A DNA stretch of 57,155 nt, filler included, from Nemertoderma westbladi (GCA_032718475.1; 3 parts of 3 records of this genome joined end to end with filler, not necessarily neighbours in it); one strand, 5' to 3'. Shown: positions 29,249 through 57,155, counted from the first letter of the whole stretch. Numbers and translations: made by a program. The notes: generated from the letters alone by a model not told the origin.

Positions 29249-32099
29249 TGGGGAGTAATCACTACACAAAGCGGTGCGCTTTCAGTGAAGTGTTACGTAC
29301 AGGACACTAAAACAAATAATACTAATTTACCTAAGTTACTTAATACTACAAATTACGTACAATTCGGGTTGAGATTACAATCTCTAAATAAACACAAAAA
29401 TTTACAAAAACACAAATACGAAATTTTAGGGTAATTTTACAAGAAGTCTACAAACCAGCCTAACAAAGGGTTAGAAAACCGGTTATTACAACGGACAGGG
29501 TACTACGGTATTTGAAATAATAAGTAGTAGTAAATACACTGCGTTGTCTAGATAGAAAAATACCACCGCCTGACGACCTATAGCCATATCGCTATAGGTT
29601 CTACGTTATGTATCACGGAGTGTTCCTACCTAGAAGTTAATAGAGCTAATCGAATGTGCCTATCAACCACTTTACAACACAAATATAATGCCTACACTAA
29701 TTACTTCGGAAAGTACTGTACACTAAACCCTAAATTAGGTACGAGTACTTGTACAACAGATAATCAGTAGTTAAATATACTTGAACAGCTAAAAGAACCA
29801 CGGCATCTGCTGGAGTGACCGATGCACAAAATCACCAGTCTTTACCTTCGCCGAGCAGCCCGTGTAGTACCGGGGTTAATTTAACTATAGCGGTATGTAT
29901 AACAAACACAATTACTGTAGGAACAAACTTAGGGAATGAATGTTGCGGATAATCGCATAAACTCTGAATAATAAATATTACGCTACGCGTACAAACTACT
30001 CAAACAAAATACAGACAGAACACTGACAGACTACTATCAAGCCTAAACAAACTACGGTATATGCAGACTCCGAAATGATTAGGGAGTATGCGCTCTAACC
30101 CAGTAGTGCGACTTATTCTTTAGTTGGGGGTTTACCTTACTGCGTTCGCTGCCCCTACTGCCTAACCGTACTTAATCGGACAGATGATCTACACACGCGG
30201 CAATCCGTTCAGACCTAATAACAGCCAGACAACTATCCAGCCTACAAATTATTTAAATGAAATTATACGCTACCCGTACAGACTTACACAAACAAAGTAC
30301 AGACTAAACGATGGCAGACTACTCTCAAGCCTAAATAAACCACAGGACATGCAGACTCCGAAATGATTAGGGAGTATGCGCTCTAACCCAGTAGTGCGAC
30401 TTATTCTTTAGTTGGGGGTTTACCTTACCGCATTGGCTGCCCCTACTTCCTAACCGTACTTAATCGGACAAGTGCTCTACACACACTGCAATTCGTTCGG
30501 ACTTAACAGCAATCAGACAACAGCTCAGCCTACAAATCGTCTGTACAATCTGATCAGGCTTACACGCCTTCTGTTCAATACTGGCCTACAAATAAATAAA
30601 ACTTGACAGAAATAAGTAAAATCTCAATAAAAAATCAGGGCGGCCGTTCCCTGATTAAGTACTAAGACCTACCGGTATACAACTATCAAAATCGAATAAT
30701 ACTGCTGTACCTGTACTGCTGTAGGTACCGGTCCGGGTGGTTAGGTAGTCAGGCCTACTGGTACCGGTTCTGGCAGTTGGGCCTACTGACCTACAGATGT
30801 ACCGGTTGACCGGTACTTTCAACTTTATTGCTTACTGCAACAAAGAAGCTATATCCTTTAATGTTCGCGCTTTCAGACCTTTGGCAGTTTAACCCACCAA
30901 ATTAAGATGTCTTCTAGATATTAAATCAGTTTTTAGTCTATGACAAGTATTTGATTCACTACACTAGTCGAAACCAATCCGTGCGCGACCATTCACCCGC
31001 TGGAGATTCCCGGGAGATTGGGTTCGACGGTTTAATTTTATGGCTATGTAAGCCTAATGTATTATTCGACTGACAGTATTATATAATCTCTGACAATATT
31101 ATTCACCTTCGGGAATATTAACAGTTCCTTTAGGACGTGGCGCTTTATCTATATAAACAGAGTTATGACTTAAACTACTCACAACGATATGGCTTAATTA
31201 TAATTCACATATATGGCGCATTCTTTAGGAATTGCTTCTTTAACAGACTCACTCATACACAATGCTGCACAATACTGCACACTAATCTGCCAATCTTCAC
31301 TGATTTTAGTCACATATAAAAGGAACACAGACTGAATCATGTAGGGTCTATCAAATAACATTAGATTCACTTCAAACCACTTTAACATAAGTCACAATCG
31401 TTATGTATAACCCTTCTCTCTTACCTTCGGTATATCAAGAATATTGGGTTTCGGGGTTATTTATCGTTATTCCAAATATAATAATTCATCAACCATGTTA
31501 TGAAGAACTGACAGTAAATAGCAGTATAAAACAACAACTGAACACTGATTGTTACGAGTTTGCAATGTTTCAGCAGTCAGCATGTATGATCAGTTAGCAG
31601 TGATTCCATGAGTCAGGTAGTTAAAGGATATATGTCCTTGTAATTAAACCTACTATTGTAAGACTAAAAACAGTAAAGCACAAAAAATACTTCCAAGCCG
31701 TTCTTTCTTGGGCTCAGGACTGAATGTAAACACTGCACATAGGCATTGCGTCATTTCTCGGAAATTTTCTGTACAAGGAGCCACAAAAACGCTCTAATTG
31801 GCTGACTGAACTGAGAGACGCCGTAGAACAAAGGAAATCAACACGTATGAATGTCAGCTGTTAACCGTAGTCATAGTAACTACTGTTCAAGAGTAGCTAT
31901 CACCCCTTTGCGTCACGAATTGCCATAGAATCATAAAATATGCCTTTCACAGTACACATACGGAGGAAATAGGTCTTAGATCCTCTAAAAACACCGATAC
32001 AGCAATAATACGGTCTCTTACACTTATTAAATCAACTACAGAGTATTTTAATGTAAAAGATAATAAAAATAACGGGGCAATTCAGCAAAGGCTTTTACA
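29249..32099 (-). mobile_element. 5' LTR (32099-30862, about 1.24 kb) and at least 1.6 kb of non-coding leader of an LTR retrotransposon, same family as the LTRs in segment 3
   Basis: On the minus strand it starts TGTAAAAGC and ends GCGCGAACA, like 45675-46905. Near-identical to 46905-48280 plus 53712-53813 in reverse. Truncates the LINE ORF at 32100. Confidence 0.8.
29975..30540. repeat. Two tandem direct repeats of about 289 bp in the LTR-element leader
   Basis: atgcagactccgaaatgattagggag...ccttac is identical at 30061 and 30350. The flanks have diverged. Confidence 0.85.
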
Positions 32100-35760: not shown

Positions 35761-36216
35761 TATAAAATTATACTGAGACTCCAAGTTAATTTTACTGTAC
35801 ATATGTGATAAGTTTTAAACTATGTGTTCGTATTTTATTGTACCTTGTTAAATAAATTTTATTGCACCTTGTTAAATAAATTTTACTGTACGTATGTGAT
35901 ACTACTTTTTAAACTGTAGCTACGTAACAGATATATTTTAAACTGTAAATTTTATTTTATTTCAAGTTTAATGTATGTATATACGGTACACGTGATTTAT
36001 TGTAAACTACTGTACAGAGTTAGACCATTTATGATACCTAGGCAAGACAATTTTATTATATAATTTCAAACAAATGTATTACCATCCATTAATTTACATA
36101 ATTTACATAAAACAATGTAAAATAAATTACCGGTAAATTGTGATTTATATATATTATTTCAGTATTGTGCAGTATGTATTTTTTATATGGGAAAAAATTC
36201 AATCAATCAATCAATC

Positions 36217-37944: not shown

Positions 37945-38575
37945 TCCAGGGAATACCTGTCCACCACCAAGGGTGATCTTCCACAGTAAACCCTTCCCCC
38001 TTCCACTCTGGTTCCTAAAGGAATGCCTGTTCACCACCATGGATGATCTTCTACAGTAAACCCTTCCACTTTGTTTCCTAAAGGAATGCCTGTTCACCAC
38101 CATGGGTGATCTTCCACAGTAAACCCTTCCACTTTGTTTCCCAAAGGAATGCCTGTTCAGAACCATGGGTGATCTTCCACAGCAAACCCTTCCACTCTGT
38201 TTCTCAAAGGAATGTCTGTTCACCACCATGGGTGATCTTCCACAGTAAACCCTTCCATTCTGTTTCCTAAAGGAATGCCAGTTCACCACCATGGGTGATC
38301 TTCCACAGTAAACCATTCCACTCTGTTTCCTAAAGGAATGCCTGTTCACCACCATGGGTGATCTTCCACAGTAAACCCTTCCACTCTGTTTCCTAAAGGA
38401 ATGCCTGTTCAGAACCATGGGTGATCTTCCACAGTAAACCCTTCCACTCTGTTTCCTAAAGGAATGCCTGTTCACCACCATGGGTGATCTTCCACAGTAA
38501 ACCCGTCCACTCTGTTTCCTATAAGAATCCCTGTTCACCACCTTGAGTGATCTGATCTTCCACAGCGAACCATTC
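37945..38575. repeat. 63-bp tandem array, about 10 copies
   Basis: Unit ctctgtttcctaaaggaatgcctgttcaccaccatgggtgatcttccacagtaaacccttcca. Confidence 0.95.
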
Positions 38576-40559
38576 CAGTGGCGTATCCAGGGGTATTGGC
38601 GCCCCGGGGCGAGAGTTGTTAAGCCGCCCCCCACCCACCCCCAGTAGTCTTTTAGCGAAATTGTTTAAATCTGACGCTGGCCGATAGGGGCCGCCAAAAA
38701 AAATTTTCTTCAAATTTTTATTTACTTTAGTCTCCCTCCCACCCACCCCGGCACCATAAATTACATTTCTGATTTTGTTATTAATTATGGTAAAATATAG
38801 GAAGTCGAGCTGGGATGTAAAAAGTATTATTTACAATGTATCCACTAATTATTATTATCTTTGTGAAGTGGCAATATGACTTAATACAATGAAATATAAT
38901 TACCGATAATATAAGGTATGGAATAAATACCGGTATATATACTGTATAAAATACTGAGCCATGGATCAAAACCAAAAGAAATTCCTTACATGGATGTGGT
39001 ACAGTAGATGTATAAGCTAAATCGAGTGCTAAATAAAGTAGCCGTATTAGCTATTGATTTAGTTGGTTGTAATGAGACTACCTCAGCACTGTTTGTATGC
39101 AAAGTATTTTTAGACTAAAAATTCTTATTATTTTGAAAGAGTGTGAAAATACATAAAACTTATTTATGTGTTTTCAATTTGCTGTACAGTACATGTTTGC
39201 AATAATTGTTGTTGTTTGTGAAAATACTGCGTGCAACAGTGAAATAATTTACTTTATTTACCGTATTATATTTGACAGGTGAATGAATGACTGAGTGTGA
39301 CATGGCAAAAGGTGTCTCTCCAAGTGTCAACATAAATTAATGTACTACCTATTAAGTATAGGGCACCAGGGTTGTGTGTGGGTGAGGGGTGGGAGCTGGG
39401 AGGGTTGGTCTGGCAGGGTATAGCTGGGTGCCATGTCTGGCTACAATGTACCCACCCACTTACAGTCAACACTATTTGATTTGGCAGTGGTAACTTAATT
39501 TCAACTGCAGAAAACGACTTTGTGACGTAAAAATATAGGCTTGCACACCCAGTGGAACGGGACTAATAATAAGTTATAACTAAAATCTAATACATAGAAT
39601 AATTAATAGTTAAACCAAATATAGTAAAAAAAAAATAACATAATACTCTCTATAACGTAGTACAGCACTGGATTGAGATATTTATATTTCCTACAATGTA
39701 AAACTCGACACAATAAGACGACGATACAACATTTACTTCGCAATATTATGTACTTTTATTGATATGAGAAAGGTTTCATCTGTGTAATAAAGGATATCGA
39801 TAAATAATTATATGTATCTGGCACAAACAATGGATTCCTAACAAACCTTCATCTCAATGATAAAGTCAAACAAATACAACACAAACACCCCAACGTTAAG
39901 TCTGCGAGAAGATATACATTGAACTAATTAATTTATTAATTAATTAATTAAGGGGGGGGGGGGGGGGGGGGGGGTTACCGCCATTTTAACACAGTCAATG
40001 AAAACCAATACTAACAGGGCAAGACTTTGTCCAAAATGAATAATTTTTGGTATTAGGGTCAATCAATAACTGAAGGTTGTTTAAAAAAAATTTTCGTAAT
40101 ATAGTTATTATAATTTAGAGCTATTTAGTAGCATAAAATTATTACTATTACTAAAAACACTACTCTTCGTACAAACATTAGTTAAATAACTAGTTATTTC
40201 GTATATATATTAGGATATAGTGTTGAATAAAAGTTTTGGTCAAAATTTTTTGATATTAAATATTTCCAACTTTATTATCCAATTAATTAATTATTTTCCA
40301 ATTTTTAAAAAAAAATTAGAATTTTTCACATTTCGAAGCCAATAAAATGAGTTAGGATCAAAATTTTAAAATACCAACCAATTCTTTTGAAGACACCAAG
40401 TTTGTGATTACTGTGTCCAAATTTCATGAAAAAAATATTAAAAAATTGGCAGAGAAGTTTGCATTTTTAATATCGTAGGAATGAAAAAATACCATTCCTC
40501 GATTAATGCCTTTAAAGTTTGAACCTTCCCGCGCAAAATATGTCTGTTAATATGTGAAA

Positions 40560-42263: not shown

Positions 42264-42521
42264 CTGATAGATACTCCAGGCTGGTTAGGTGGACCCGACT
42301 CCCTAAGTAAAGAAGAAGATGAATGGCCTCCCCACCTTAACCCGGCTGAGATTAGACAGGCCAAGGGAGCGGAGAAAGTAACACGACAACCCAATCACCC
42401 AGCTGGTCGTTTATGTTTACTGGAAAGAGACCAAAAACTGTCCGGAAACTATGGAAGGCAAGATACTCTTCCTACGACCACTTCCCTAATCCGACAAATA
42501 TCTAGGGACTCCATAACGTAA
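42264..42521 (+). pseudogene. Internally deleted BEL/Pao pol remnant
   Basis: Frame from 42264 reads WLGGPDSLSKEEDEWP (the BEL WxxGPxFL..WP motif after RNase H), fused directly to AEIR...HPAGRLCLLE (a BEL integrase-tail RPxxKLxxLE-like motif). Confidence 0.6.
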
Positions 42522-43071
42522 TAACATATGGAGTGGGTGTGTGACTATATCATTTTATATTTGTTTTTATTTTATATTTATGTATGTATTATTATGTAAT
42601 ATTATTATAATCGTTTTCTTTAATTTTATTTGGTAGAATGTTATTTTAGGGATTATTTAGTAGATTAGTGCAATATATTAGTGTTTATTACGTACGTAAT
42701 TATTTATAATATATATTTAGTGCGACGGCAAGAAATAATTATTTTTTCTCTTTCCTTACTGTCCGTATCATATTATAAATACGTGACTACAGTAAGATGA
42801 AATGTCCGTACTTATTAAAGTACAATAAAGCTCCTACTATATTTAAGTATTATTGGTAGGCAGAGTATTAGGAATGCAAAGTTCAGATCCTCGTGTCTCG
42901 GCTAAACCAAGCTCTGGGTAGACCTTGGAAACGACTTGCCTCTTCACACTGACATTGCTTCGTGCGATATTGCTCTTCTACCTTATATTAAATAATACAT
43001 ATAGTAGCGTGATGTCCCTCTAACAGTGGCGTAAATCGCAAATAAATCTGTTAAACTTTTTGACCATCTGT

Positions 43072-43345
43072 AATTCTAGTCGATTAAGATATCGTGGCAC
43101 CCACCGATATACTTGAAAGACAAATTCTAGAATCAGTGGTTAACGTCCCCAGACAAGTTCTGGAATAAATCGGTGCCCATCCTAAATATTAATTTAATAT
43201 TTATTAAAATCTGTAAAATTCAGATCCGTTAACAATTCTAGTCGATTAAGATATCGTAGCCCTTACCGATACTCTTAAAAGACAAATTTCATAGAATTAA
43301 GGATCCTATGTCCCCAGACCTGCTCTGGAATCAAATTGTGTCAAT
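43072..43345. repeat. Two diverged direct repeats, period about 162 bp
   Basis: aattctagtcgattaagatatcgt...aaagacaaatt...gtccccagac...tctggaat occurs twice. Confidence 0.8.
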
Positions 43346-44147
43346 TTTAACATCAAATAATAAAATTCACGGGAATAAATTAAATTCATATTCAAATGAA
43401 TTTCATAAATTGTCATTTTGTGCAATTTATAACATTCCCAAAATTCCAGTAATTAATAGATCATGGGAGCGGAGATTCATATTGAGTGTACTAGAGTGCG
43501 AGAATCTCCAATATATAGTCAATAACCGATAAATTTTATAAAATCATGCATAAAGAGGATATTGACAATTAAAGAATTACTATTAAATAACATCCCAGAT
43601 CTGTATGCATGAGAATTACCCTAATTCTACCGCTAGTTTTCCATAATATCACCATGGCAACACCCACGCTAGAATTAGAAGCAAGTTAACTGAACAATAA
43701 AAAGCTTGCCCCATTGCGTAGCATAAAAGTATACATAGCACCCTATTAGTATCCAAGGATACATAGTAATAACGTGACATTCTGGAAGACACTGACTAAC
43801 GGACAAATGGCCTGCATGTGTGCAGTAAGTAATGATTGTATGGAATTTGTGCGTTTATAGGTGAATGTTACTACTAAAGTGTGTTTACAGTAGCTAATCG
43901 CAATTGTAAAATAGCCCTAACTCTACCGAGATAACCTCAAGTGGATTCAAGCCTTTGGGACGGACAGTGGTGGGACTTGTGCCGGTTATCGTTGTCGTGC
44001 TGTTGCTACATGTTAGCGTAAACACTGCGACAGCGGTACATCGGCGCTGAGAAACCCACTGTCCGGGGGCAAAAGCCTAGTAGGCAGCGACGCCCGCTTG
44101 CCTAAAATATTAACTTATATTGATATTAATAAACTCAGATAGCAGAT

Positions 44148-45596
44148 ATGACGGAATTGATAGAAGATGACCTTGGTATTAGAGAGTGATATACTCTACC
44201 TTTACAAGCGTTTGTGGATAGCTTGATGCGCGGTGAAGCCGATCCGACTATTACGGAGGACGATGGTCGTTATATCGAACCGCCGATGTCCCAAGAGCAA
44301 CTTACGCGTGAATTGGACTATCGAAAATTAACCGCTCGCTATACGCATCGTAATGGTACGTATATGGACTTCTTAACTACCGGCCATCCTATCGATTTAC
44401 ATGATACGGACGATGTAGACACCGAAAGGGAAATGGTTCTATTTAAATATCATACCCAGCGGCGTCGTATCGATAAACCGAGAATAGATCACGAAAATTC
44501 TATTCGTAACAGACTGGGAAGACGAACCAATATGTCTAGAATCTGAGGAGATTCAGCCTATCGCGCTCGGAACAGCGACAACGATTACATCCTAGAATGG
44601 CATCAAAGTCCACAGTGTCTCACTGCGTACGATTATCTCCATGCCAACTATGTTTCTCGGCAACGTTGTCGGTTATGCGCATCGAGAGACCATGTTACGC
44701 CCATGGACACAAACGTCCGCTGTTCCTATTTCCACGAACAACCGGCGATGGAAATTTATTGCGCGTATTGCAGATTTAATAATTTGCACATTTTTGCTGT
44801 CTGCCCCCAATTTATGACTCAATGCCATCATTGTCAATTAAAAGGACACGCCAGCTTTGATTGTCCCTTTAACCATGATTTAGAGAGCGTAGATGAAATG
44901 ATTGTACTACGTTATATCAGAGCTTGGGAAGCGAACGCTGATTTACATTGTGATTCACGCCATCGCTATTATCCTGGACGCGCCTACGAAGGAGTTTATG
45001 CGTTCCATCCATATTTGTTTGCCTCCGTCGAGCAGAAATCGCGCCTATCAAGTTATGAACTATTGAAGCGCGTTGGAGAATGTATTTCAACCAAATATGT
45101 ACGCAAATTCCTCAGGAGCATTAATCCGAGTGACATCAATTCGTATAACTTAATAAACTTTATCCGTCAAGATCCGGCCTATGGAGACTTATTTGTCAAC
45201 TCACACCCTGAGTTACAGGAAGTATATCGACGGCCTTACGAGTACAGAGCCCGCGAACGCGAGTTGGAAAGAACCATTAAACCAAGGAAGTTTCTAACTG
45301 CCTATGGTCCACCCACGGCCCTCGTTCAGACCACTCGTAAAGGACCCGTAAGAGCGGCTGTCTTGAAACGAGCTCTCAAAGCCGTTAGACCCCTCTCCCC
45401 GGACGTTGATGTCAATCAACCCGGTACTTCGACCGGCGGATATACCGATCGCAATCCCATACCTTCTGATGCAATCATATTGCACCCTTCACCCAGGCGT
45501 TATAGCCCTCCTTGTAAAGTGGCTCGCCCCAAAGAGAAAAGGACTCTTGCTAGCTTTAAAAAACTGCGTAAACGCCGTCCGCGCATGAAAGACTAA
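44148..45596 (+). pseudogene. Accessory ORF (about 482 codons, two in-frame TGA) encoding three CCHC-type zinc knuckles and a basic C-terminus
   Basis: ATG 44148, ORF 44214-44546 and ORF 44703-45596 share one frame, broken only by TGA at 44187 and 44544. Motifs CRLCASRDHx9C, CAYCRFNNLHIFAVC, CHHCQLKGHASFDC; tail KKLRKRRPR. Confidence 0.75.
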
Positions 45597-45674
45597 CTGT
45601 TTAGAGTATTTTCGTATTTGAGAAACTGTGATTTTGTATATTTTATAGACTTAAATCCCATTTTCTGGGAGCGG

Positions 45675-46905
45675 TGTAAAAGCTTCTGTGGGATATAACT
45701 GGCCCCTTTTGCTTCGCAATCCAGTTTCCCCCCAGGCGCTGGAATACTCTAAAAAGGTTCTCTAACTGTATATATATTCCCCTCGCCCGCAAGGTACCGT
45801 TACAGGTGTTTTAACGGACATAAAAGTCATTCTGCTATATACGTGTTTTAGCGGACATGGTAAGGCAAAAAACCTGCAATGCACCAAATACCTTTCACAG
45901 CTTAGCCGTGATGATTCATATTACGACATCTAACAGCTGGTTGCTGACATGGAAACAGCCATTGGATGCATGGTTCTTTGTTTGGCTTGAGCCAATCAGA
46001 GCGTTTTTTCCTGTCGACGTGTAGCTTTTCGGCCGATCATAAGGAGAGTGTTCAGTCTTACTGTTTTTACTTGATACTTTGTTGTTATTGCTGTCTAAGC
46101 CAGAAACACCGGCTCTAAGAACTCTAGCAAAAACTGCTTAGATTATAGAAAGTATAACTGTTACCGGCGGTGTTACCTCACTTAATTTAACTGCACTAAT
46201 CATATTGTTTGTACTGCTATTTACCGTCAGTTATTAATTGTATCTATTTGTTGATGGAAATATTGCTCTTTGGAGAATACGGATAAATCACCCAAAATTC
46301 CCAATTTTCTTGATACACTACAGGTTAGAGAGGCGGGCTATATATAACAATTGCGATTTATATCAATGTGGTGTGTATTGAATCTAATGTTATTTAGTAG
46401 ACACTACCTGAGTCAATTGCTGTTCTCTTTATGTGTGATCAAATATACTGACGGTCGGCAGAATAGTGTGCATGATTGTGAGTGTGATGTGACTGGTAAC
46501 AAAGCATTTCCTAAAGAATGCGACTTATACTTTAATCATAAGCCTTATCGTTGCGTTTAGTATAAGTCCTAGCTCTGTTTAAATAGATAGAGCGCCACGT
46601 CCTAAAGGAACTGTTAATATTTCCCGAAAGTTAATAATATCTGTCAGAAATTACATATTAGCGATCAATCGAATAATACAGTAGGCTTACACTGCAACCT
46701 TACACTGCAATAATAAAATCTAAGCATCCGAATTCAGCCTCCCGGGTGTAGATCCATCGGGTGAATGATCGCGCATGGGCTGGCTTCGGCTAATGTTTTG
46801 TTTATTAGCATAAAATATTGTCGTATGCTAAAGGTGTGTTAATTAACTAAAAGACATATAAATTTTGGCAGGTTAAACTGCTAAAGGTCTTCAAAAGCGC
46901 GAACA
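45675..46905 (+). mobile_element. 3' LTR (about 1.23 kb) of the BEL/Pao-type element, preceded by a polypurine tract
   Basis: GGGAGCGG|TGTAAAAGC...AAAGCGCGAACA. Diverged homologue of 30862-32099 with matching termini. AATAAA at about 46712. Confidence 0.75.
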
Positions 46906-49900
46906 GGATCTAAGACCTATTTCCTCCGTATGTGTACTGTGAAAGGCATATTTTATGATTCTATGGCAATTCGTGACGCAAAGGGGTGATAGCTACTCTT
47001 GAACAGTAGTTACTATGACTACGGTTAACAGCTGACATTCATACATGTTGATTTCCTTTGTTCTACGGCGTCTCTCAGTTCAGTCAGCCAATTAGAGCGT
47101 TTTTGTGGCTCCTTGTACAGAAAATTTCCGAGAAATGACGCAATGCCTATGTGCAGTGTTTATATTCAGTCTTGAGCCAGAGAAAGAACGGCTTGGAAGT
47201 ATTTTGTGCTGTACTGCTTTTTAGTCTTACACTAGTAGGTTTAATTATAAAGGGCATATATCCTTTAACTTGAATATCTCACTGTAAATATCTCACTGCT
47301 GACATACCGGTACTGATGTACCGATCTACCTAACTGTTCAGTTGTTGTTTGATACTGCTATTTACTGTCAGTTCTTCATAATATGGTTGATGAATTATTA
47401 TATTTGGAATACCGATAAATAACCCCGCAACCCAATATTCTTGATATACCGAAGGTAAGAGAGAAAGGTTACCAATAACGATTGTGACTTATGTTAAAGT
47501 GGTTTGAAGTGAATCTAATGTTATTTGATAGACCCTACATGAGTCAGCCTGTGTTCCTTTTATATGTGACTAAAATCAGTGAAGATTGGCAGATTAGTGT
47601 GCAGTATTGTGCAGCATAGTGTATGAGTGAGTCTGTTAAAGAAGCAATTCCTAAAGAATGCGCCATATATGTGAATTATAATTAAGCCATATCGTTGTGA
47701 GTAGTTTAAGTCATAACTCTGTTTATATAGATAAAGCGCCACGTCCTAAAGGAACTGTTAATATTACCGAAGGTGAATAATATTGTCAGAGATTATATAA
47801 TACTGTCAGTCGAATAATACATTAGGCTTACATAGCAATAAAAATTAAACCGTCGAACCCAATCTCCCGGGAATATCCAGCGGGTGAATGGTCGCGCACG
47901 GATTGGTTTCGACTAGTGTAGTGAATCAAATACTTGTCATAGACTAAAAAGCGATTTATTATCTAGAAGACATTCTAATTTGGCGGGTTAAACTGCCAAA
48001 GGTCTGAAAGCGCGAACATTAAAGGATATAGCTTCTTTATTGCAGTAAGCAATAAAGTCGAAAGTATAGGTCGACCGGTAACCAGTAGGCCTGACTGCCT
48101 GATCATCCGGACCGGTACCTACTTCCGTATAAGTACAGCAGTATTATTCGATTTGATTATATATGCCGGTAGGTCTTAATAATTAATCGGGGACGCCTGG
48201 TTTTTATTGGGATTTTACTTAGGCCTATTTCTGTCAGTTTTATTTATTTGTAGGCCAGTATTGAACAGAAGGCGTGTAAACCCTATAAGCATTTGACGTC
48301 TATTTTTACACCTTAACAGGTATGTGGACGTCATTTTACGTCAATTATGTTTGTTGCAAGAACTCATCGTTTTGATGGTTGATGTAATTACGTAAAATTA
48401 CGTCTTGAACACGTCTTGTTGACACGTTCCTGTATGAGATTTATACATGGTGGATATAATTACCTAAAATGACGTGTTGAACACGTCTTGATGGCACGTA
48501 TCTGTGTGATACTTTTCATGGTGGAAATAATTACCTAAAATGACGTCTTGACGGCACGTATCTGTGTGATGCTTTTCATGGTGGAAATAATTACCTAAAA
48601 TTACGTCTTGAACACATGTCTTAATGACACATCTACTTACCACTTACAGACTTACCTACTGACTGACTACAGTACGAGTACAGTATATTTATATTAGTAG
48701 TACCGGCAGACCGGTGCGGTACTACAGTACTACATACTAGACTCAGGCTACTGCTGGAGCTGGAGTACAGCTGACAGGATTGTAATTTCACGTTTGAACC
48801 ACCTGGCTGCTGACCTGCCTGGCCTAACATATCCTGCAGTCCTGTTTGGCAGGTTGGTGGCCTCCTGGCTGCCTGGCCTCCAACCTGCAACCTCTGGACT
48901 CTTAAATAAGGCCCTAACCTTATGTAGTACAGTTGTGCAGTAGTAGGCCTACACCTACAGTACCGCAGTATCCCTATTGAAAAGTTTTACCTGTACGCCG
49001 ACAGCAGGCAGGCTGAACACGTTCGGAAGTTCGGCACAGCTTTTCAACTTGCAGACTCTAAACACCCAAATCACACAAAATTGACCAAATCTGCAAATCA
49101 CACCAACAGACGATGAGCTGGGCGATAGACACAGGGGGTTGAGAAGAAAAAAGGGTATTGATTACAGGCAACTCGATACTGGTAATGCTAGTGATGGAGA
49201 CGATTTGGAAAGTGACAATGTAAGTAAAATGAGTGAGTAACGTTGATGCTAATTAATACATGTTTATATTTTAGGGCTGTAGGGGTCAGCCATAAATGAC
49301 GTCCGAGGTCAGAGGGGGGCGAGGGGGTCTTCGAAATCCGGACATCTTCGGTCAGAAGTTGGATGGGGTTGGCTAAATTAGGATGTCCGATTTTCACTTT
49401 TCTTTATTTAGATTAATATAAATTTATCACTACTGTAATAAACGGGTTACCTAATTGGTTGAGGGCAGACCTTCTTCATTATTTTTCACAATATTTTGAG
49501 TTTATAGGTAGAATACAGTCCATATGTCTAACACAATTGTTCTTTACGTTCATCTAATAATGTACCGTCATCATAATGTTCCCACTTCCCACACTATTTT
49601 TTTTACAGTGCCAATCCTCATTTTATCAATCCTCACTTCCCACACTATACTGTAGTATTCACACATTTTTCGTTCGTATATTTGCTATTTAGGACATCTT
49701 AGTGTCGGGCATCAAGCCTTCTTCAAAATTCCATTCGATACAGCGGCCACATCCTACCCCATCACCGCTCGACGTTGGTTATTTTAGAAATTGCGACAAT
49801 ATTTCTGTAAGTCATTATTTTCAAAATGTCACCGAGACTGTCTGATGTGTGTGTCTGTATATATACAATAATATTTACTTAATAAAATTACTTTACTTAA

Positions 49901-50577
49901 AATGACTCATGCAATATCAGGTCTCCGTCAAATAAGGGGACAACTGACAAAGCAGTGCAAATTATATTTATACAAAACACTAGTATTACCACACCATAAC
50001 TATTGCTGCGAAATTTTAATATCACTCCATAATATTCATGGTTTCAAAGAACAACTATATTCTCTAGAAAAAATACAAGTGGGTAGTACACATAGCAAAA
50101 AAATACGAGACTTAACAGTCGAACAGAGTTACGGTCACAATCAAAGTTGCCTACACTACTAAAGGCTCTATTATAAAATTTATTTATTTATTAAATTATC
50201 TTTAGGGGCGTAGTAACTGGGTAATGTAGGGTCTGGTGCTTCAAAAGTACTGTGGTTGCCGACGCTTAATTAATCTCAGCCAATCATAAGCTACGGTTGG
50301 CCATTCCCTCCAGGCTTCCACGATTGTTTTCTCAATTGTTGAGTTTTGAGATTAAAAGATAGAATAATAATAATAATAATACTTATATATATATATATTG
50401 AATTGCCCGTGGGAAAATTTAGACAGTATAAAAATAGATTCAGTTTCGGTTCAGTACCGAACCTATACTTATTTTTTCAATTGGAATCAAATGGATCTGG
50501 TTCGATTCCTCGATTCCGTACCTCTCATCAGTTATTAGTTTGTATAAAAATCACCTTTTTGTTTATTTTTGTTTTAG

Positions 50578-51852
50578 GAAGATCGTATACTAGAGGCAGT
50601 ACAGGTTCTAGATGCTTGGGATAGGGATAATATGCAGATGCAGACAATTAACCAGGAACAGTTGAGGACATTAACTACTGATCCCGGATTCCAGTTATCG
50701 GTTAATCCAGGGACTGTCGGGACGCTTAATCCTGGTTGTAACTCGGGGTCGCTTACTCCAGGAACTGTCGGCGCGCTTAATCCTGGTTGTAACTCGGGGT
50801 CGCTTACTCAAGGAACTGTCGGGGCGCTTAATCCTGGTTGTAACTCGGGGTCGCTTACTCAAGGAACTGTCGGGGCGCTTAGTCCTGGTTGTAACTCGGG
50901 GTCGCTTACTCAAGTAACTCTCGGGGCGCTTAATCCTGGTTGTAACTCGGGGTCGCTTACTCAAGGAACTGTCGGGGCGCTTAATCCTGGTTGTAACTCG
51001 GGGTCGCTTACTCAAGGAACTGTCGGGGCGCTTAGTCCTGGTTGTAACTCGGGGTCGCTTACTCAAGTAACTGTCGGGGCGCTTAATCCTGGTTGTAACT
51101 CGGGGTCGCTTACTCAAGGAACTGTCGGGGCGCTTAATCCTGGTTGTAACTCGGGGTCGCTTACTCAAGGAACTGTCGGGGCGCTTAATCCTGGTTGTAA
51201 CTCGGGGTCGCTTACACCAGGAACTATCGGTCCGCTTAATCCCGGTTGTAACTCGGGGTCTCTTACTCCTCCAGGAACTGGAGATGTGAATGAGGGCGCA
51301 CGTACGGAGGCCCGTCGAAAGCCGTATGAAATATTAATGGATAAACTAAATACCATAATTGAGACACAGAAGTTTCACAGTAAACTGTTTAGTAACATCA
51401 TAAATCCGGCAGCAGTCATGCCCCCTGATAATAATATTAATGAATATATACATCTACCAGTTGCCACTGTTGCTGAACTCGAGGATTTGAACAAGGTACT
51501 CATCAATGATTCTTCTTATAAAGCCACGATGAATCGACTGAAACTAGTTGGTGGCTCAACTTTGACTGGTTCCGCTACTGCTATTCTAAAGGCCACAATC
51601 ACTGAAGAACTCGCTTCAAAACTTAGCTGGTGCGGATTTGATCGAAAAAACAATGCAGGTGTTCAGAAAACTGCAATTAAAGAAACTTTATTTGTTCAAC
51701 TGGTAACTGAATCTGTTTTGTCATCTCCTCTGTTTCAGGAGGAACGTTGTATCGGTGTGAAAATCGTTCACAATCGCATCAAAGAGTGGCTTAAACATGC
51801 CCCAGCACGATTCAAACGTAAATGCATTGCTGTTGATGTTGAATGTGACTAA
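50578..51852 (+). CDS. DUF4806-like protein (transposon accessory ORF) with an 11 x 17-aa internal repeat; probable terminal exon
   Basis: Acceptor ttttgttttag|GAAGAT is in frame with the ORF from 50632. C-terminus LKLVGG...ITEELASKLSWCG..K...IKEWLKHAPAR is typical of DUF4806. Candidate upstream exon 49110-49219 ends in phase 0 with gtaagt. Confidence 0.7.
   Translation, partial: EDRILEAVQVLDAWDRDNMQMQTINQEQLRTLTTDPGFQLSVNPGTVGTLNPGCNSGSLTPGTVGALNPGCNSGSLTQGTVGALNPGCNSGSLTQGTVGALSPGCNSGSLTQVTLGALNPGCNSGSLTQGTVGALNPGCNSGSLTQGTVGALSPGCNSGSLTQVTVGALNPGCNSGSLTQGTVGALNPGCNSGSLTQGTVGALNPGCNSGSLTPGTIGPLNPGCNSGSLTPPGTGDVNEGARTEARRKPYEILMDKLNTIIETQKFHSKLFSNIINPAAVMPPDNNINEYIHLPVATVAELEDLNKVLINDSSYKATMNRLKLVGGSTLTGSATAILKATITEELASKLSWCGFDRKNNAGVQKTAIKETLFVQLVTESVLSSPLFQEERCIGVKIVHNRIKEWLKHAPARFKRKCIAVDVECD
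50710..51270 (+). repeat. 51-bp coding tandem repeat, 11 copies (GTVGALNPGCNSGSLTQ)
   Basis: Direct reading; frame-preserving. Confidence 0.95.
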
Positions 51853-51853
51853 A

Positions 51854-52848
51854 GTGGGTATGAAGGTAATGAGGTGGGTGTGAGTGGGTATGAAGGTAAT
51901 GAGGTGGGTGTGAGTGGGTGGGTAGGAGTAATATGGTGGGTGTGAGTGGGTAGGAAGGTAATATGGTGGGTGTGAGTGGGTAGGAAGGTAATATGGTGGG
52001 TGTGAGTGGGTGGGTAGGAAGGTAATATGGTGGGTGTGAGTGGGTAGGAAGGTAATATGGTAGGTGTGAGTGGGTAGGAAGGTAATATGGTGGGTGTGAG
52101 TGGGTAGGAAGGTAATATGGTGGGTGTGAGTGGGTAGGAAGGTAATATGGTGGGTGTGAGTGGTTAGGAAGGTAATATGGTGGGTGTGAGTGGGTAGGAG
52201 GGTAATATGGAGGGTGTGAGTGGGTAGGAAGGTAATATGGTGGGTGTGAGTGGGTAGGAAGGTAATGAGGTGGGTGTGAGTGGGTGGGTAGGAAGGTAAT
52301 GTGGTGGGTGTGAGTGGGTAGGAGGGTAATATGGTGGGTGTGAGTGGGTAGGAAGGTAATGAGGTGGGTGTGAGTGGGAATGAAGGTAATATGGTGGGTG
52401 TGAGTGGGTAGGAGGGTAATATGGTGGGTGTGAGTGGGTAGGAAGGTAATATGGTGGGTGTGAGTGGGTAGGAAGGTAATGAGGTGGGTGTGAGTGGGTG
52501 GGTAGGAAGGTAATATGGTGGGTGTGAGTGGGTAGGAAGGTAATATGGTGGGTGTGAGTGGGAAGGAAGGTAATATGGTGGGTGTGAGTGGGTAGGAAGG
52601 TAATATGGTGGGTGTGAGTGGGTGGGTAGGAAGGTAATATGGTGGGTGTGAGTGGGTAGGAAGGTAATATGGTGGGTGTGAGTGGGTATGAGGGTATTAT
52701 GGTGGGTGTGAGTGGGTAGGAAGGTAATTAGGTGGGTGTGAGTGGGTTGGTAGGAAGGTAATATGGTGGGTGTGAGTGGGTAGGAGGGTAATATGGTGGG
52801 TGTGAGTGGGTAGGAAGGTAATATGGTGGGTGTGAGTGGGTAGGAAGT
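51854..52848 (+). repeat. 30-bp G-rich tandem array, about 33 copies
   Basis: Unit gagtgggtaggaaggtaatatggtgggtgt, starting right after the stop codon. Confidence 0.96.
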
Positions 52849-53808
52849 AACTCATGTCATATTGTAATGTCATATACTATTTTACACAACTATTGCTCCC
52901 ATTAATGCTCATTCATTATAAATATTCAAATATTTTAAAAATTACATTTTTTGACATTTATGTGGTCATTTTCAGTTTATCTACCCAAAAAAAAAGTATT
53001 TTAGTACTTTATATAAGTAAAAATAATCCGAGCAGGAAAGGGATAAGATAAATACAGTTTTATATTTTTACTGAATTTTTTACTGTATTTTTACTTGATT
53101 CTCTTGATTTTACATTTCCTCTCCATCTTGTAATTTTTATATTCATTTCCAAATCAAACTTGTGCTAAATATATCAGTGCTATTTTAATTTGTGTTTATT
53201 AGTTGATAATTAACAATTTATTCGGATATTAAATTTATCGTACATTGGTCACATTATATAATAATGTTTTTCTTTATTATAGTATCAACAAACACCGTCA
53301 AGAAAGTAAAATCAATTTCAATCATAACTGTCACGGATCTAAGCGATGTAAAAAGCGACGCGTACGTGCTTGTGTGGTGTAGTTATTTGGCGTCTGTTAT
53401 TGGTACGTGTCTAGCACGTCATTTGACGTGCTTGTGTGGTGTAGTTATTTGGCGTCTGTTATTGGTACGTGTCTAGCACGTCGTTTGACGTGCTTGTGTG
53501 GTGTTCCAGTGTAGTATTTGACGTCTGATGACGTAATTGACACGTGTCTAGCAAGTCATTTGACGTAAACTGTAGCACGTCATGGTTTGTCGTGCTAAAA
53601 CACGTGTTTGACACTTCCAAAATACACGTAGCCAGGACGTCATTTTCAACACGTTGACGTCAAATAATTACGTCGTATCCACGTGTTTTAGACGTGTTGA
53701 TGCTTATAGGGAACCTGATCAGATTGTACAGACAATTTGTAGGCTGAGCTGTTGTCTGATTGCTGTTAAGTCCGAACGAATTGCAGTGTGTGTAGAGCAC
53801 TTGTCCGA

Positions 53809-56025
53809 TTAAGGAACGATTTTAGCGCGTTGACAATGTTCGCATTCCCGTACCCACTGCTGAATGTCCCTCTTTGCCTTGGGCCAAAAGTAGCGAGATA
53901 ATATTAGGCGTTGTGTCGCTGTCCGACCTGGGTGAGCTACATTGTGAGCTTGTTGAAAAATTGAAAATCTGAGATTTTCTGTAATATAGGGTCGAGGATA
54001 AGAAGAATTTGTGTCACATGCGATTGTAAGAGAACCAAAGGGAAGTTTTGTGAGGGTTGAAGGAAGTTCTACTCCCTCTTGGGATTGTTGTATAGCCGGT
54101 AAGTCGCAAACGGCAGTAGAAATACTGGCAATAAGCGGTGTCGGGCCTTCCATTTCTGGTAATATCTGATCTGCCATTGGTTGGTTGGATGAGTCGGGTG
54201 GTCGGGATAATAAATCGGCTACAATATTTTCACGGCCAGGAATATAGCGAACTTCATCCACATATTCCGCTATTGTGGCAAATCGATGATTTTGCCAATG
54301 AGAATTGGCGTTAGTTCTTTTATGGATCGCAGAAACCAACGGTTTATGGTCTGTAAGTGCAATGGTTTGCAGCGATTCTATATATGGCCTGAAATGCAAC
54401 ACAGCACTGGAGAGGGCGAGGAGTTCACGCTCAAATGCTGATCGTTGTGAATCCGTTGTACTTAAACGCTTGGAAAAGAATGACAAGGGTTGGTCATTGA
54501 CTGATAAAACGCCTCCTATTGCCAAATCGGAAGCATCTGTAGTTAATATGAATTCCTTGGCATCTGGTGGTGGATGTGTAAGAATGACTCGTTGTTGTAA
54601 TACTTCGAGGATTCTTGTGTATGAGTCTTGGTGATGTTGGAGCCAGTTAAACTGAGGACTGACTCCTTTGCAGGGTTGAGTGTCGTTTAATAGTTCTTGG
54701 AGTGGAATTAAAATCTCTGCAGCACGAGGTAGGAAACGGCGATAAAAGTTTATGGCCCCTAGTCGGCTTCTAAGTTCCTTGTAAGAAGTGGGGATGGACA
54801 GTGCGCAAATTTCACTCACTTTAGATGTCGAGGGCGATATTCCATCTGAACTAATGTTAAATCCGAGAAAATCGAGATCCGGAACGGCGAATACGCATTT
54901 GTTGGGATTTACGTGTAAACTGTAACAATCTAGACGCTGAAATAATTGAATAAGATCGGCTTTGTGAGTTTCCATATCAGGAGAACCGCAGATAACGTCG
55001 TCGTAAAATGGGAAGGTTCTCTCTCCTAGTCCATGAAGAGCCTTGTGGACATGGCGGTTGAAGTGGGGTCCAGCGTTTTTCATCCCGAAGGGCATACGGA
55101 TAAACTCAAAGAGTCCAAATGGAGTTGTTATTGCCGTTTTAGGGATATCACTATCCTTAACGGGGATAACATGGTACGCTTTGACTAAATCTATCTTGGA
55201 AAAGACGGTACATCCGTGTAAGAATGCGTTGGCGTCACGAGGGTCCGGTGTCGGATAACTATCTTTCTTTGTTACAGAGTTTAGACGGCGGTAATCACCA
55301 CAGGGTCGGTACGTCCGATCTTTCTTTGTTACCATGTGTAATGGTGATGACCATTCAGAGGCCGATGGACGAATAATTCCAAGCTTTAACAGTTCGTTAA
55401 AATAGTTCTTGGCAGTTGCTAACTTATCTGGCGCTAAACGTCGAGGTTTACTTTGTATCGGTGGGCCTTCTGTTTCAATAGAAAATTCTATCGTTGATTG
55501 GGGAGTTTCAGTATAATCTGGTAACTTGAATAGATGTTGGAAGGGCTCCATAGAAACAAGAATCGATGTAGGGAGTTCTGGAAGGGACGACTTTACCAAA
55601 GGAGTTGGGGGTGCTCGTTGCAGTTGCAGGGAAGCAACCAATCCTGTGATGCTGTCTTGGAGTACAGACAAATTACAATTGACTAACAGTTTATTCTTTG
55701 CCAAAAAATCGGCACCAAGTATCGCCTGGGTAACGTCAGCAATTATAAACTGGTGAAAGTATTCCCGTCGTAGACGTTTCAGTTTAATAACCATATTCGC
55801 TCGGCCATATGTCTGAATTGGATGGCCATCTGCAGCACATAATTCATCTGTAGAGAGTTCAATAATATGTGAGTCGGCGAGTTGTGGGGGCAGAACACTG
55901 TAACAAGCTCCGGTATCGATCAGGAAACGGGTGAGTTTGTTACCAACTTTGGCCTCCACAGTGGGCGATTTGTGAAACGCCCCCGGTGCTGAAATCGCTG
56001 CAACAGAGGGGGAGTCTAGTTTCCC
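53809..56025 (-). CDS. pol: Pol (protease, RT, RNase H, integrase zinc finger only), entered by -1 frameshift
   Basis: LIDTGA; YRPCGDYRRLN, KIDLVKAY, FYDD; TDAS, ERELLA, TDHKPL, NIVADLLSR; H..H..CEHC, then a stop supplied by the adjacent repeat. Confidence 0.92.
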   Translation of the reverse strand, partial: GKLDSPSVAAISAPGAFHKSPTVEAKVGNKLTRFLIDTGACYSVLPPQLADSHIIELSTDELCAADGHPIQTYGRANMVIKLKRLRREYFHQFIIADVTQAILGADFLAKNKLLVNCNLSVLQDSITGLVASLQLQRAPPTPLVKSSLPELPTSILVSMEPFQHLFKLPDYTETPQSTIEFSIETEGPPIQSKPRRLAPDKLATAKNYFNELLKLGIIRPSASEWSSPLHMVTKKDRTYRPCGDYRRLNSVTKKDSYPTPDPRDANAFLHGCTVFSKIDLVKAYHVIPVKDSDIPKTAITTPFGLFEFIRMPFGMKNAGPHFNRHVHKALHGLGERTFPFYDDVICGSPDMETHKADLIQLFQRLDCYSLHVNPNKCVFAVPDLDFLGFNISSDGISPSTSKVSEICALSIPTSYKELRSRLGAINFYRRFLPRAAEILIPLQELLNDTQPCKGVSPQFNWLQHHQDSYTRILEVLQQRVILTHPPPDAKEFILTTDASDLAIGGVLSVNDQPLSFFSKRLSTTDSQRSAFERELLALSSAVLHFRPYIESLQTIALTDHKPLVSAIHKRTNANSHWQNHRFATIAEYVDEVRYIPGRENIVADLLSRPPDSSNQPMADQILPEMEGPTPLIASISTAVCDLPAIQQSQEGVELPSTLTKLPFGSLTIACDTNSSYPRPYITENLRFSIFQQAHNVAHPGRTATQRLILSRYFWPKAKRDIQQWVRECEHCQRAKIVP
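55965..56025 (-). promoter_or_regulatory. -1 ribosomal frameshift signal (slippery G GGA AAC plus predicted pseudoknot)
   Basis: GGGAAAC immediately precedes the gag TAG, and the -1 frame reads open into protease. CCCC/GGGG stem, with loop GCGATTT complementary to downstream AAATCGC. Confidence 0.85.
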
Positions 56026-56879
56026 TGATCCGGCGAGTTGTCCCTTGAGTTCTCACGAGAAACGTCACGAGAAAAGATGCGTGGTCGATGGCTGTCACTC
56101 TTGGGAAACTGACACCAAGTTGTACAGTTTTTAGCTGCTCTGCCGAAGAATATATGAGAACGGCAGATTTTTGGACGCTGGTTGCGGGAGAATGGAGTAA
56201 TGGTACGTTGGTAGCTACGATTTGGGTAAGATGATGAACCGGCTGAGTCGTCCGAATATCGATTGGATCGGTACCGCGGCGGGGACTTGTGATCCGGCGA
56301 GCGGCCCCTGTAATATGAATCGGGTGAACCAGGACGATCACGGGAATATGAATTGGTTGAACGAGGATTATCACGTGAATATGAACCAACAGAATAAATC
56401 GGCATCTTGTTGACCGTGGCAGCGATGACGGTATCCGCAATCTTCAGGAATTCCTCCAGTGGATTCTTCGCTTGGGTGGCGAGAGCTGACTTCGCTGCCT
56501 CTGTGGGCATTGCTTCTATTACTCGAGCGATCAGTTCTTGTTCGCTACGCTGCGGCATGTCCGCGGCGTTTGCCAGAAGTTTCAGGCGGTGAACTGCCTG
56601 TGAAGGACGCTCTCCTTCGTGTAGAGAGAATGTTGCGATAGCCCGGCGAATAAGATCGTACTGCGATTCACCCAACGTGTTTTTAAGCATATCTTTTGCC
56701 TCGTCATACGTTTTAACGTCGGCAGTGGCAATAAGAGCGGCTTGTTCGGTAGGAAGGAGCGTCAGTAGAAGATTAACCTGGTCTTCTGCCTTGGTTTTCT
56801 CCAGAACGAAATAAGCCTCTAGTTGGCGGAACCATATACTTGGGTGTTGGAGTGAAAAAGGTGGAAGACGGCTTGCCAT
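56016..56879 (-). CDS. gag: Gag (287 aa)
   Basis: N-terminus LPPFSLQHPSIWFRQLEAYF and CHCC knuckle CRSHIFFGRAAKNCTTWC. Confidence 0.9.
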   Translation of the reverse strand: MASRLPPFSLQHPSIWFRQLEAYFVLEKTKAEDQVNLLLTLLPTEQAALIATADVKTYDEAKDMLKNTLGESQYDLIRRAIATFSLHEGERPSQAVHRLKLLANAADMPQRSEQELIARVIEAMPTEAAKSALATQAKNPLEEFLKIADTVIAATVNKMPIYSVGSYSRDNPRSTNSYSRDRPGSPDSYYRGRSPDHKSPPRYRSNRYSDDSAGSSSYPNRSYQRTITPFSRNQRPKICRSHIFFGRAAKNCTTWCQFPKSDSHRPRIFSRDVSRENSRDNSPDQGN

Positions 56880-57155
56880 AATATCCAGATAGTGTAAAGA
56901 GTATTATTATAGTTCAGAATAAACTTACAGTTCAACAGTTTTTATTTATTTATCGAGTCAGGTCACCAATGTAATGGTGCGTGCAGTCAGGGTACAGCAG
57001 TACCGGTGTCCGGTAGTACTGATGGTAGTACCGGTTATAAAGAGATGACTGCTTTCACTCACTACTACTGACTGACGTCAGTACCGGTATGTATATTGTA
57101 TATCCTTATATCGGTACTCTTTCCTACACGTAGGCCACCACACACCTACACGTAG

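What the first reader, a model, noticed from the sequence alone, without database searches (positions are those of the whole stretch)
47257..48030. Candidate self-priming LTR retrotransposon: the non-tRNA 'PBS' is exactly complementary to a 12-mer inside its own LTR
Seen: the LTR ends ...GCGCGAACA (48018) and is followed by TTAAAGGATATA (48019-48030) rather than a TGG tRNA PBS. Its exact reverse complement TATATCCTTTAA lies at 47257-47268 in the same LTR, downstream of CCAAT/TGACG-type motifs and upstream of the AATAAA. The independent copy in segment 2 keeps both 12-mers (30850-30861 and 31621-31632), although the sequence just 3' of the LTR motif differs between the two copies. Established: Tf1-type Gypsy elements prime reverse transcription by annealing the first ~11 nt of their RNA to the PBS. 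Inference: this family, linked here to a BEL/Pao pol remnant, may self-prime; I do not know of that being described for BEL/Pao. The diverged LTR (45675-46905) has TATAACTGTTAC at the equivalent place (about 46153), which predicts a covarying PBS near GTAACAGTTATA in that subfamily.
Basis: partly seen in the sequence, partly recalled or inferred. Interest (0 to 1): 0.82.

Follow-up and report, generated by a model that had tools for sequence, protein, structure and literature searches.

The report
Self-priming signature in BEL/Pao retrotransposon
Where a host tRNA normally lands to start DNA copying, this animal jumping gene has 12 bases that pair exactly with its own terminal repeat, and a diverged sister subfamily keeps the pairing with different letters, so the family, likely of the BEL/Pao group, likely primes its own replication as yeast Tf1 does.

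Summary
Observation confirmed. The 12 nt directly behind the LTR (48019-48030) are the exact complement of 47257-47268 in the same LTR; 4 of 20,000 shuffled LTRs match as well. Contigs of run X2 join the diverged LTR's end to the predicted 12-mer, and one X1 contig agrees: four paired changes, no cross-pairing. Folding keeps the helix only if the RNA starts near the motif. The upstream coding remnant is the best window match to a BEL/Pao RNase-H-end profile (E 3e-5). Of 32 control BEL/Pao elements, 28 have tRNA-type sites and at most 7 nt of self-complement. Likely mechanism: Tf1-like self-priming. Not shown: transcription start, cleavage, an intact element. A third primer-site variant found no matching motif. 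ICTV lists Belpaoviridae as tRNA-primed, and nine paper searches found no self-priming BEL/Pao. This scan has noted the same signature in other genomes, and two control elements reproduce its splice-junction form.

The parts
42264..42521 (+). BEL/Pao pol remnant at a contig start: end of the RNase H region (about 42264-42379), then, after an apparent internal deletion, a possible integrase C-terminus and stop
   Evidence: Best of 971 window frames for a profile of 137 BEL/Pao RNase-H ends, E 3.3e-5; also best for an integrase-tail profile but not significant (E 2.5). Contigs of X2 and X5 continue differently behind 42379. No Pfam hit on its own.
44190..45596 (+). 3' accessory ORF with Cys/His knuckles, interrupted by one stop at 44544-44546
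   Evidence: ORF list; weak zf-CCHC hit; best of 971 frames for a profile of the 3' ORF of BEL/Pao element L015 and five homologues, E 1.1e-4
45667..45674 (+). purine-rich tract (PPT-like) directly before LTR A
   Evidence: sequence; similar G-rich tracts precede the 3' LTRs of the control BEL/Pao elements
45675..46905 (+). LTR A (1231 nt, TG...CA), read as the 3' LTR of the BEL/Pao remnant; 73.6% identical to LTR B over 716 nt
46153..46164 (+). predicted self-primer of subfamily A; its complement follows type-A LTR ends in public contigs
   Evidence: table 5c; table 7
46906..48018 (+). LTR B, a 5' LTR lacking its first 39 nt, fused to the end of LTR A
47088..47092 (+). CCAAT box, kept in LTR A and both B copies
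47257..47268 (+). predicted self-primer of subfamily B (predicted 5' end of the RNA)
47271..47335 (+). hypervariable patch directly behind the predicted primer
   Evidence: 25 of 75 columns identical between B copies that are 97% identical on both sides; contig depth on LTR A also drops behind its 12-mer
47455..47461 (+). splice-donor-like site kept in A and both B copies; a matching acceptor-like site ends at 48253; untested
   Evidence: motif scan
47837..47849 (+). poly(A) signal candidates (AATAAA, ATTAAA); would make R about 600 nt long
   Evidence: the R length is inferred
47979..48000 (+). predicted U5 hairpin; all 8 pairs kept in 3 of 3 LTRs, with one-sided changes in 3 pairs
48019..48030 (+). 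non-tRNA primer-binding site, offset 0 from the LTR end
48035..48057 (+). predicted 9-bp leader hairpin that hides an AATAAA
48031..48280 (+). non-coding leader; interrupted at 48281 by a DNA transposon and resumed at 53714-53813
30862..32022 (-). second, complete type-B LTR (1161 nt), inserted at the start of a LINE endonuclease frame
31621..31632 (-). predicted self-primer in the second B copy
30850..30861 (-). primer-binding site of the second B copy; its non-coding leader appears to run on to the contig end at 29249

Best explanation
This is a high-copy LTR retrotransposon family, likely BEL/Pao, whose primer-binding site is complementary to a 12-mer in its own LTR and covaries with it, and which likely primes reverse transcription with that piece of its own RNA. 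Shown: the pairing sits at offset 0 behind the LTR, and two subfamilies keep 12 of 12 pairs through four two-sided changes. Inferred from Tf1: transcription would start at or within a few bases of the 12-mer. The RNA 5' end would fold back about 750 nt onto the primer site, helped by a U5 stem that ends at the LTR border. The element's RNase H would cut behind the paired stretch, and RT would extend the freed 3' end straight into U5. Copying of the retained primer into the plus strand would rewrite the primer site each cycle, which would explain the tight covariation. Errors at the cut template end would explain the variable patch behind the motif. The copies in the window are defective remnants, so the enzymes would come from intact relatives.
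For: Exact pairing in two copies, 4 of 20,000 shuffles. Blindly predicted type-A site found in X2 contigs (depth 304.5) and matched by one X1 contig. Cross-pairing between subfamilies is 5-6 nt; predicted duplex energies are -11.6 and -13.0 kcal/mol for cognate pairs against -0.5 and +0.6 for swapped pairs. The helix has probability 0.94-0.96 in 5 of 5 folds that start at the motif or, for copy B3, 17 nt upstream. It has 0.40 in the B2 fold starting 18 nt upstream and at most 0.02 in 4 of 4 folds starting 57 nt or more upstream. It meets the published criterion for a predicted self-primer, 10 bp or more at offset 0-5 (PMC6317226). 28 of 32 control BEL/Pao elements have TGG sites and at most 7 nt of self-complement; the window's own gypsy element has TGGTGACC and 5 nt. 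Two control BEL/Pao elements (L136, L164) also lack TGG and pair across a predicted splice junction with covariation. BEL/Pao profile matches to the remnant and to the 3' ORF.
Against: No RNA data, so neither the start site nor a cut is shown. No conserved TATA box lies 25-30 nt upstream of the motif; the motif itself begins with TATA and the CCAAT box is about 165 nt upstream, which would also fit another start site. A second type-A variant of the primer site in X2 (depth 262.4) pairs only 9 nt with the window's type-A motif, and no matching motif variant was listed at the 1% threshold. The BEL/Pao label rests on 37 residues (E 3e-5, from a profile of loci chosen by the same motif) and an E 1e-4 accessory-ORF match. 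No single contig spans pol to LTR, and Pfam alone did not name the remnant. L002 and L137, in the same pol clade as L015, carry tRNA-like TGGCGCCCAAC sites. Folding of 900-nt RNAs is unreliable.
Confidence: 0.74

Rival explanations
1. The 12-bp helix is a selected structural element of the RNA leader (packaging, poly(A) suppression or splicing control), and priming uses a host tRNA fragment or another RNA.
For: Other predicted hairpins flank the site and are kept between subfamilies. Half-tRNA priming exists in Ty1/copia (PMC6317226). No host tRNA set could be tested.
Against: The helix ends exactly at the LTR border, where extension must start. The site differs at 4 of 12 positions between subfamilies, which one fixed tRNA would not tolerate. 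No TGG occurs in the 60 nt behind the LTR.
Confidence: 0.11
2. The LTRs self-prime but belong to a Ty3/gypsy (Tf1/sushi-like) or non-autonomous element, and the BEL/Pao remnant is only a neighbour.
For: 1.7 kb of non-coding DNA separates the pol remnant from the ORF and holds a second purine tract with TG near 42535-42548 and a TGG-starting stretch near 42855. No contig spans the whole. Self-priming in animals is described for the sushi group (PMC6317226).
Against: The ORF that ends 78 nt before LTR A matches, by itself, the 3' ORF of a Pfam-confirmed BEL/Pao element. All 30 bins from pol to leader are covered in 4 of 4 runs. No gypsy or chromodomain frame is collinear with these LTRs; the window's gypsy pol is on the other strand and has its own tRNA-type site.
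Confidence: 0.09
3. The 12-mer is a promoter (TATA-like) element upstream of the start site, and it pairs with the primer site only from the 3' LTR copy, by circularising the RNA or in trans from the partner genome.
For: Both motifs begin with TATA, and no other conserved TATA box was found upstream.
Against: With 57 nt or more of U3 upstream the helix is predicted not to form. A cut in the 3' LTR would remove the acceptor for strand transfer in that molecule (inference).
Confidence: 0.05
4. The complementarity is chance.
For: The sequence is AT-rich, and the two B copies are not independent.
Against: 2e-4 in shuffles, and a blind 12 of 12 prediction met in a second subfamily.
Confidence: 0.01

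Closest known systems
Tf1/Tf2 of Schizosaccharomyces pombe, Tj1 of S. japonicus and the Tf1/sushi and Tcn1 groups (Ty3/gypsy)
   Same: No tRNA site; the primer site is complementary to an LTR segment. In Tf1 the first 11 bases pair and RNase H cuts between bases 11 and 12 (PMC7175516 passage; PMC4600332 and PMC5341516 passages). A U5 stem-loop is needed in Tf1 (title of a cited paper only).
   Different: The linked coding remnants match BEL/Pao, not gypsy. The LTRs are 1.16-1.23 kb and the motif lies about 750 nt from the primer site. Start site and cleavage are not shown here.
Belpaoviridae (BEL/Pao, Semotivirus)
   Same: RNase-H-end motif, LTR length near the top of the stated 0.2-1.2 kb range, short PPT, extra 3' ORF position (PMC8742986, whole text).
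   Different: ICTV describes an 18-nt site for tRNA-Arg or tRNA-Gly and tRNA-primed replication; this family has no such site.
Ty1/copia TAR lineage (Houba, Osr-1)
   Same: Self-priming predicted from the same kind of LTR-to-PBS complementarity (PMC6317226 passages).
   Different: Plant copia elements, a different superfamily; no covariation test was seen in the passages read.
Dictyostelid Skipper elements
   Same: Lack the TGG signature (PMC5006619 passage).
   Different: No complementary region in their LTR; a polypyrimidine stretch instead.
Splice-junction-type BEL/Pao elements
   Same: BEL/Pao, long LTR, no TGG, self-complementary primer site with covariation.
   Different: There the complement forms only across a predicted GT-AG junction; here it is contiguous in DNA and no splice-junction match was found.

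Membership tests
LTR retrotransposon | TG...CA LTRs, PPT before the 3' LTR, primer site behind the 5' LTR | tested here: met
   LTR A and the segment-2 LTR run TG...CA; G-rich tract at 45667-45674; leader behind LTR B
LTR retrotransposon | two near-identical LTRs flanking one element, with target-site duplication | not testable with these tools
   all copies are cut by contig ends or insertions; no genome held
Belpaoviridae (BEL/Pao) | BEL/Pao-type pol sequence (Peptidase_A17 region) | tested here: met
   remnant is best of 971 frames for a BEL/Pao RNase-H-end profile, E 3.3e-5; weak, 37 residues, and Pfam gave no hit
Belpaoviridae (BEL/Pao) | RT phylogeny and PR-RT-RH-IN order | not testable with these tools
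   RT is not in the window; the tree holds only control loci
Belpaoviridae (BEL/Pao) | physical linkage of that pol to these LTRs in other copies | tested here: inconclusive
   collinear in the window and covered throughout in 4 runs, but no contig spans it
Belpaoviridae (BEL/Pao) | tRNA-Arg/Gly primer-binding site (ICTV description) | tested here: not met
   no TGG site; this departure is the finding, so it is filed as a variant related to BEL/Pao, not a textbook member
Self-priming elements (Tf1 mechanism) | 10 nt or more behind the 5' LTR complementary to the LTR | tested here: met
   12 nt at offset 0 in B (2 of 2 copies) and in A
Self-priming elements (Tf1 mechanism) | covariation of primer and primer site | tested here: met
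   4 two-sided changes between A and B; a third site variant unresolved
Self-priming elements (Tf1 mechanism) | primer is the 5' end of the transcript | not testable with these tools
   no RNA holder listed; only indirect folding support
Self-priming elements (Tf1 mechanism) | RNase H cleavage of the RNA duplex frees the primer | not testable with these tools
   needs biochemistry
Tf1/sushi chromoviruses (Ty3/gypsy) | gypsy-type pol with chromodomain between these LTRs | tested here: not met
   collinear coding remnants match BEL/Pao profiles; the window's gypsy pol is a separate antisense element with a TGG site
Half-tRNA-primed elements | primer site complementary to an internal tRNA segment | tested here: inconclusive
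   no host tRNA genes available; ARAGORN found 0 in the window and 3 doubtful ones in 165 loci, best match 7 of 12

The most novel reading that the evidence does not exclude
BEL/Pao retrotransposons have left tRNA priming more than once and in two designs: a contiguous 5'-end primer (this family) and a primer built by splicing (L136/L164). Because the primer is copied into the primer site each cycle, the 12-mer drifts freely as a subfamily-specific lock and key that blocks cross-priming and escapes control by tRNA fragments, and the cut leaves a mutational scar just behind it.
Probability: 0.3. Interest if true: 0.82.

Novelty: new variant of a known kind. Interest (0 to 1): 0.64.

Why it matters
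Self-priming is shown for fungal Tf1 and predicted for the Tf1/sushi, Tcn1 and copia TAR lineages, while the ICTV profile describes Belpaoviridae as tRNA-primed. A BEL/Pao family with a blindly confirmed covarying self-primer would make this a third superfamily. It would imply that a BEL/Pao RNase H can cut an RNA duplex, and it bears on whether self-priming is ancestral or repeatedly re-invented. It gives exact, testable coordinates for the RNA start and the cut. It also means that annotation tools requiring a tRNA site will misjudge such abundant animal elements.

Tried and rejected
No genome is held for the window, so family members could not be collected. No RNA holder was listed; X5 is only guessed to be RNA, and no splice joint was among the joints shown for it. 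LTR pattern scans of metagenome and viral contigs found 0 matches. Protein searches with the 349-aa ORF found nothing at E 0.001 or below in the word-indexed database, one unrelated knuckle-repeat protein among cluster representatives, and only zf-CCHC-type look-alikes under 0.9 in the Atlas. The 85-aa remnant found nothing in the protein database, and its first 56 aa nothing meaningful in the Atlas. The second read-laying aimed at a motif variant for the third primer-site form was inconclusive: that form is near or under the 1% listing threshold. The X1 contig joining the type-A motif to the reverse complement of the LTR end could be a snap-back cDNA; I read it conservatively as the LTR-end/primer-site junction laid in reverse. 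The tRNA-fragment test had no usable tRNA set. Rfam found 0 families in 42264-57155. A splice-junction primer for this family was tested and not found. A search for primer sites in 26 control contigs, most without LTR pairs, was noisy and not used except for the two tRNA-like sites. The careful tree did not finish; the quick tree was used. BEL motif scans of viral contigs gave 1, 0 and 0 loci; that one locus was left out.

Full report
Setting. The window is three contigs joined by N spacers, from an animal by its laminin G/EGF exons, polyubiquitin, LINE and gypsy remnants. No genome is held.

Observation. The 12-mer and its complement occur exactly four times, at the coordinates given. In both copies the complement begins at offset 0 behind the LTR's terminal CA and stops at 12 nt. 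4 of 20,000 dinucleotide shuffles reach 12 nt, and 27 of 36,600 background positions do. The two type-B copies are about 97% identical in U3 and R-U5, so the second copy adds little by itself.

Anatomy. Segment 3 reads: pol remnant (42264-42521), 1.7 kb non-coding, a knuckle ORF with one stop (44190-45596), a G-rich tract, LTR A (45675-46905), LTR B lacking its first 39 nt (46906-48018), the 12-nt site, and a leader. A DNA transposon splits the leader at 48281-53711, and an antisense gypsy element ends it at 53813. Segment 2 holds a complete type-B LTR (32022-30862), the same site and a longer leader. A and B are 73.6% identical over 716 nt.

Covariation test. The window does not contain it. 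Laying 4 of the 11 listed runs showed, in run X2, a joint from 46906 through TAACAGTTATAGATC to 48037 at depth 304.5. That is the predicted 12 of 12 letters, followed by the leader shared with B. Only 12 of 44 rows of that table were shown. In a second laying, one contig of run X1, a different study, carries the reverse complement of LTR A's end directly behind 46164. This most simply is the same junction laid in reverse. A and B sites differ at 4 of 12 positions, each matched in the LTR motif. Cross-pairing is 5-6 nt, and predicted duplex energies fall from about -12 to about 0 kcal/mol. Against: X2 also shows a variant, TAACAGTTTATTATC (depth 262.4), that pairs only 9 nt with the window's A motif, and no matching motif variant was listed at the 1% threshold. 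It may be a decayed copy or a minor subfamily.

Start site. No RNA holder was listed. Ten folds were run. The helix has probability 0.94-0.96 in the five that start at the motif or, for B3, 17 nt upstream; 0.40 for B2 starting 18 nt upstream; and at most 0.02 in the four starting 57 nt or more upstream. This fits a start at the motif but is only a prediction on 900-nt RNAs. No conserved TATA box lies at -30, and the motif itself starts with TATA. A U5 stem and hairpin ending at the LTR border are kept in 3 of 3 LTRs; 2 of 30 predicted pairs change on both sides. The 65-75 nt behind the motif are only 25 of 75 columns identical between otherwise 97% identical copies, and contig depth on LTR A falls by a third to a half right behind its motif in 3 of 4 runs. 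I infer this marks the template end where RT jumps; that such ends are error-prone is recalled, not tested.

Superfamily. Pfam and the large protein searches did not name the remnant or the ORF. Three that were checked carry Pfam Peptidase_A17. A profile of 137 RNase-H ends ranks the remnant first of 971 window frames (E 3.3e-5); the loci were chosen by the same motif, so this is partly circular. Independently, the knuckle ORF resembles the 950-aa ORF 3' of pol in L015 (pairwise E 2e-4), and a profile of that ORF with five homologues ranks it first of 971 (E 1.1e-4). Both point to BEL/Pao, modestly. No contig spans pol to LTR.

Controls. 42 loci showed a direct repeat around pol. Ten were dropped as contig-end overlaps, unrelated repeats or a duplicate, leaving 32. 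28 of 32 have TGG within 8 nt of the LTR end and at most 7 nt of self-complement; 24 of these come from one assembly. Of the other four, L130 looks like a tRNA site with one mismatch (my reading) and L122 has an ill-defined LTR end. L136 and L164 pair 8 nt directly behind a T-rich AG acceptor plus 3 nt before a GTGAGTAT donor, and those 3 nt change together with the primer site. This reproduces, in two near relatives, the splice-junction form that earlier notes of this scan describe. In a quick tree of 62 rows these two lie apart from the L015 clade, in which L002 and L137 carry tRNA-like sites. If the ORF match reflects kinship, self-priming is patchy within BEL/Pao. The window's family is not in the tree.

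Mechanism. Most likely Tf1-like self-priming (0.74 together with the BEL/Pao label). Shown: position, pairing and covariation. Inferred: start at the motif, RNase H cut, extension into U5, and rewriting of the site from the retained primer (retention is known to me only from a cited title). Rivals: structural helix with another primer (0.11), self-priming but not BEL/Pao (0.09), pairing from the 3' LTR only (0.05), chance (0.01).

Literature. The ICTV Belpaoviridae profile (PMC8742986, whole text) gives tRNA-Arg/Gly priming. Passages read: PMC6317226 (self-priming in Tf1/sushi, Tcn1, TAR), PMC7175516 (Tf1 11-nt primer), PMC4600332, PMC5341516, PMC5006619, PMC3601003, PMC2774666, PMC13524379, PMC8220671. 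Term searches in the Sinbad and BEL/Pao survey papers found no text on primer sites or priming of these elements (PMC554778, PMC3118150). Nine library searches listed no paper on self-priming BEL/Pao. No supplements were read. Repbase, GyDB and subscription papers are not covered; I have a vague, unverified recollection of Repbase remarks on self-primed animal LTR elements, so prior mention is possible.

Verdict. A real, well-supported sequence signature of a known mechanism in a superfamily where I found it undescribed in print: new variant of a known kind, interest 0.64. The scan has seven earlier notes of the same kind from other genomes and none among those shown for this genome; they are not counted as evidence.

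Noticed in passing
L136 1001-1880 and L164 1001-1790: Two related BEL/Pao elements lack a TGG site; their primer site pairs across a predicted GT-AG junction inside the LTR (8 + 3 nt), and the 3 exon-end letters change together with the site.
   Followed up: partly
window 48281-53711: DNA transposon with 12-nt terminal inverted repeats starting CCC, an AA 2-bp duplication, subterminal repeats, a DUF4806 ORF with 17-codon repeats and a G-rich minisatellite; CMC/EnSpm-like by recall.
   Followed up: partly
window 46905-46906: A type-B 5' LTR lacking 39 nt is fused directly to the end of a type-A 3' LTR; deletion or aberrant reverse transcription, unexplained.
   Followed up: no
window 47455 and 48253: Conserved donor-like site in the LTR and acceptor-like site in the leader; such an intron would remove the poly(A) signal and the primer site from the mRNA.
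   Followed up: partly
L015 3461-6313; window 44190-45596: A family of long 3' accessory ORFs with Cys/His knuckles in BEL/Pao elements; no Pfam family for the L015 ORF, five database homologues.
   Followed up: partly
window 53812-57155: Antisense Ty3/gypsy element truncated in integrase, with DUF7041 gag and a TGGTGACC primer site; used as a control.
   Followed up: yes
window 29973-30537: Two tandem copies of about 280 nt, 86% identical, in the element's leader.
   Followed up: no
window 13688-24000: Array of about 300 copies of a 32-nt G-skewed satellite; further minisatellites at 7108-8439 (72 nt), 26199-27591 and 37950-38577 (63 nt).
   Followed up: no
window 36137-37000: Polyubiquitin-like ORF with three ubiquitin stretches, beside a broken LINE (31897-35252).
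   Followed up: no
L119-L165: Animal BEL/Pao-like elements occur in prokaryotic MAG records (L136 confirmed by Pfam), most likely host contamination.
   Followed up: no
L063 about 340-360: Control element in the same tree branch as L136/L164 with an 11-nt self-complement behind a CA; LTR border unclear.
   Followed up: no
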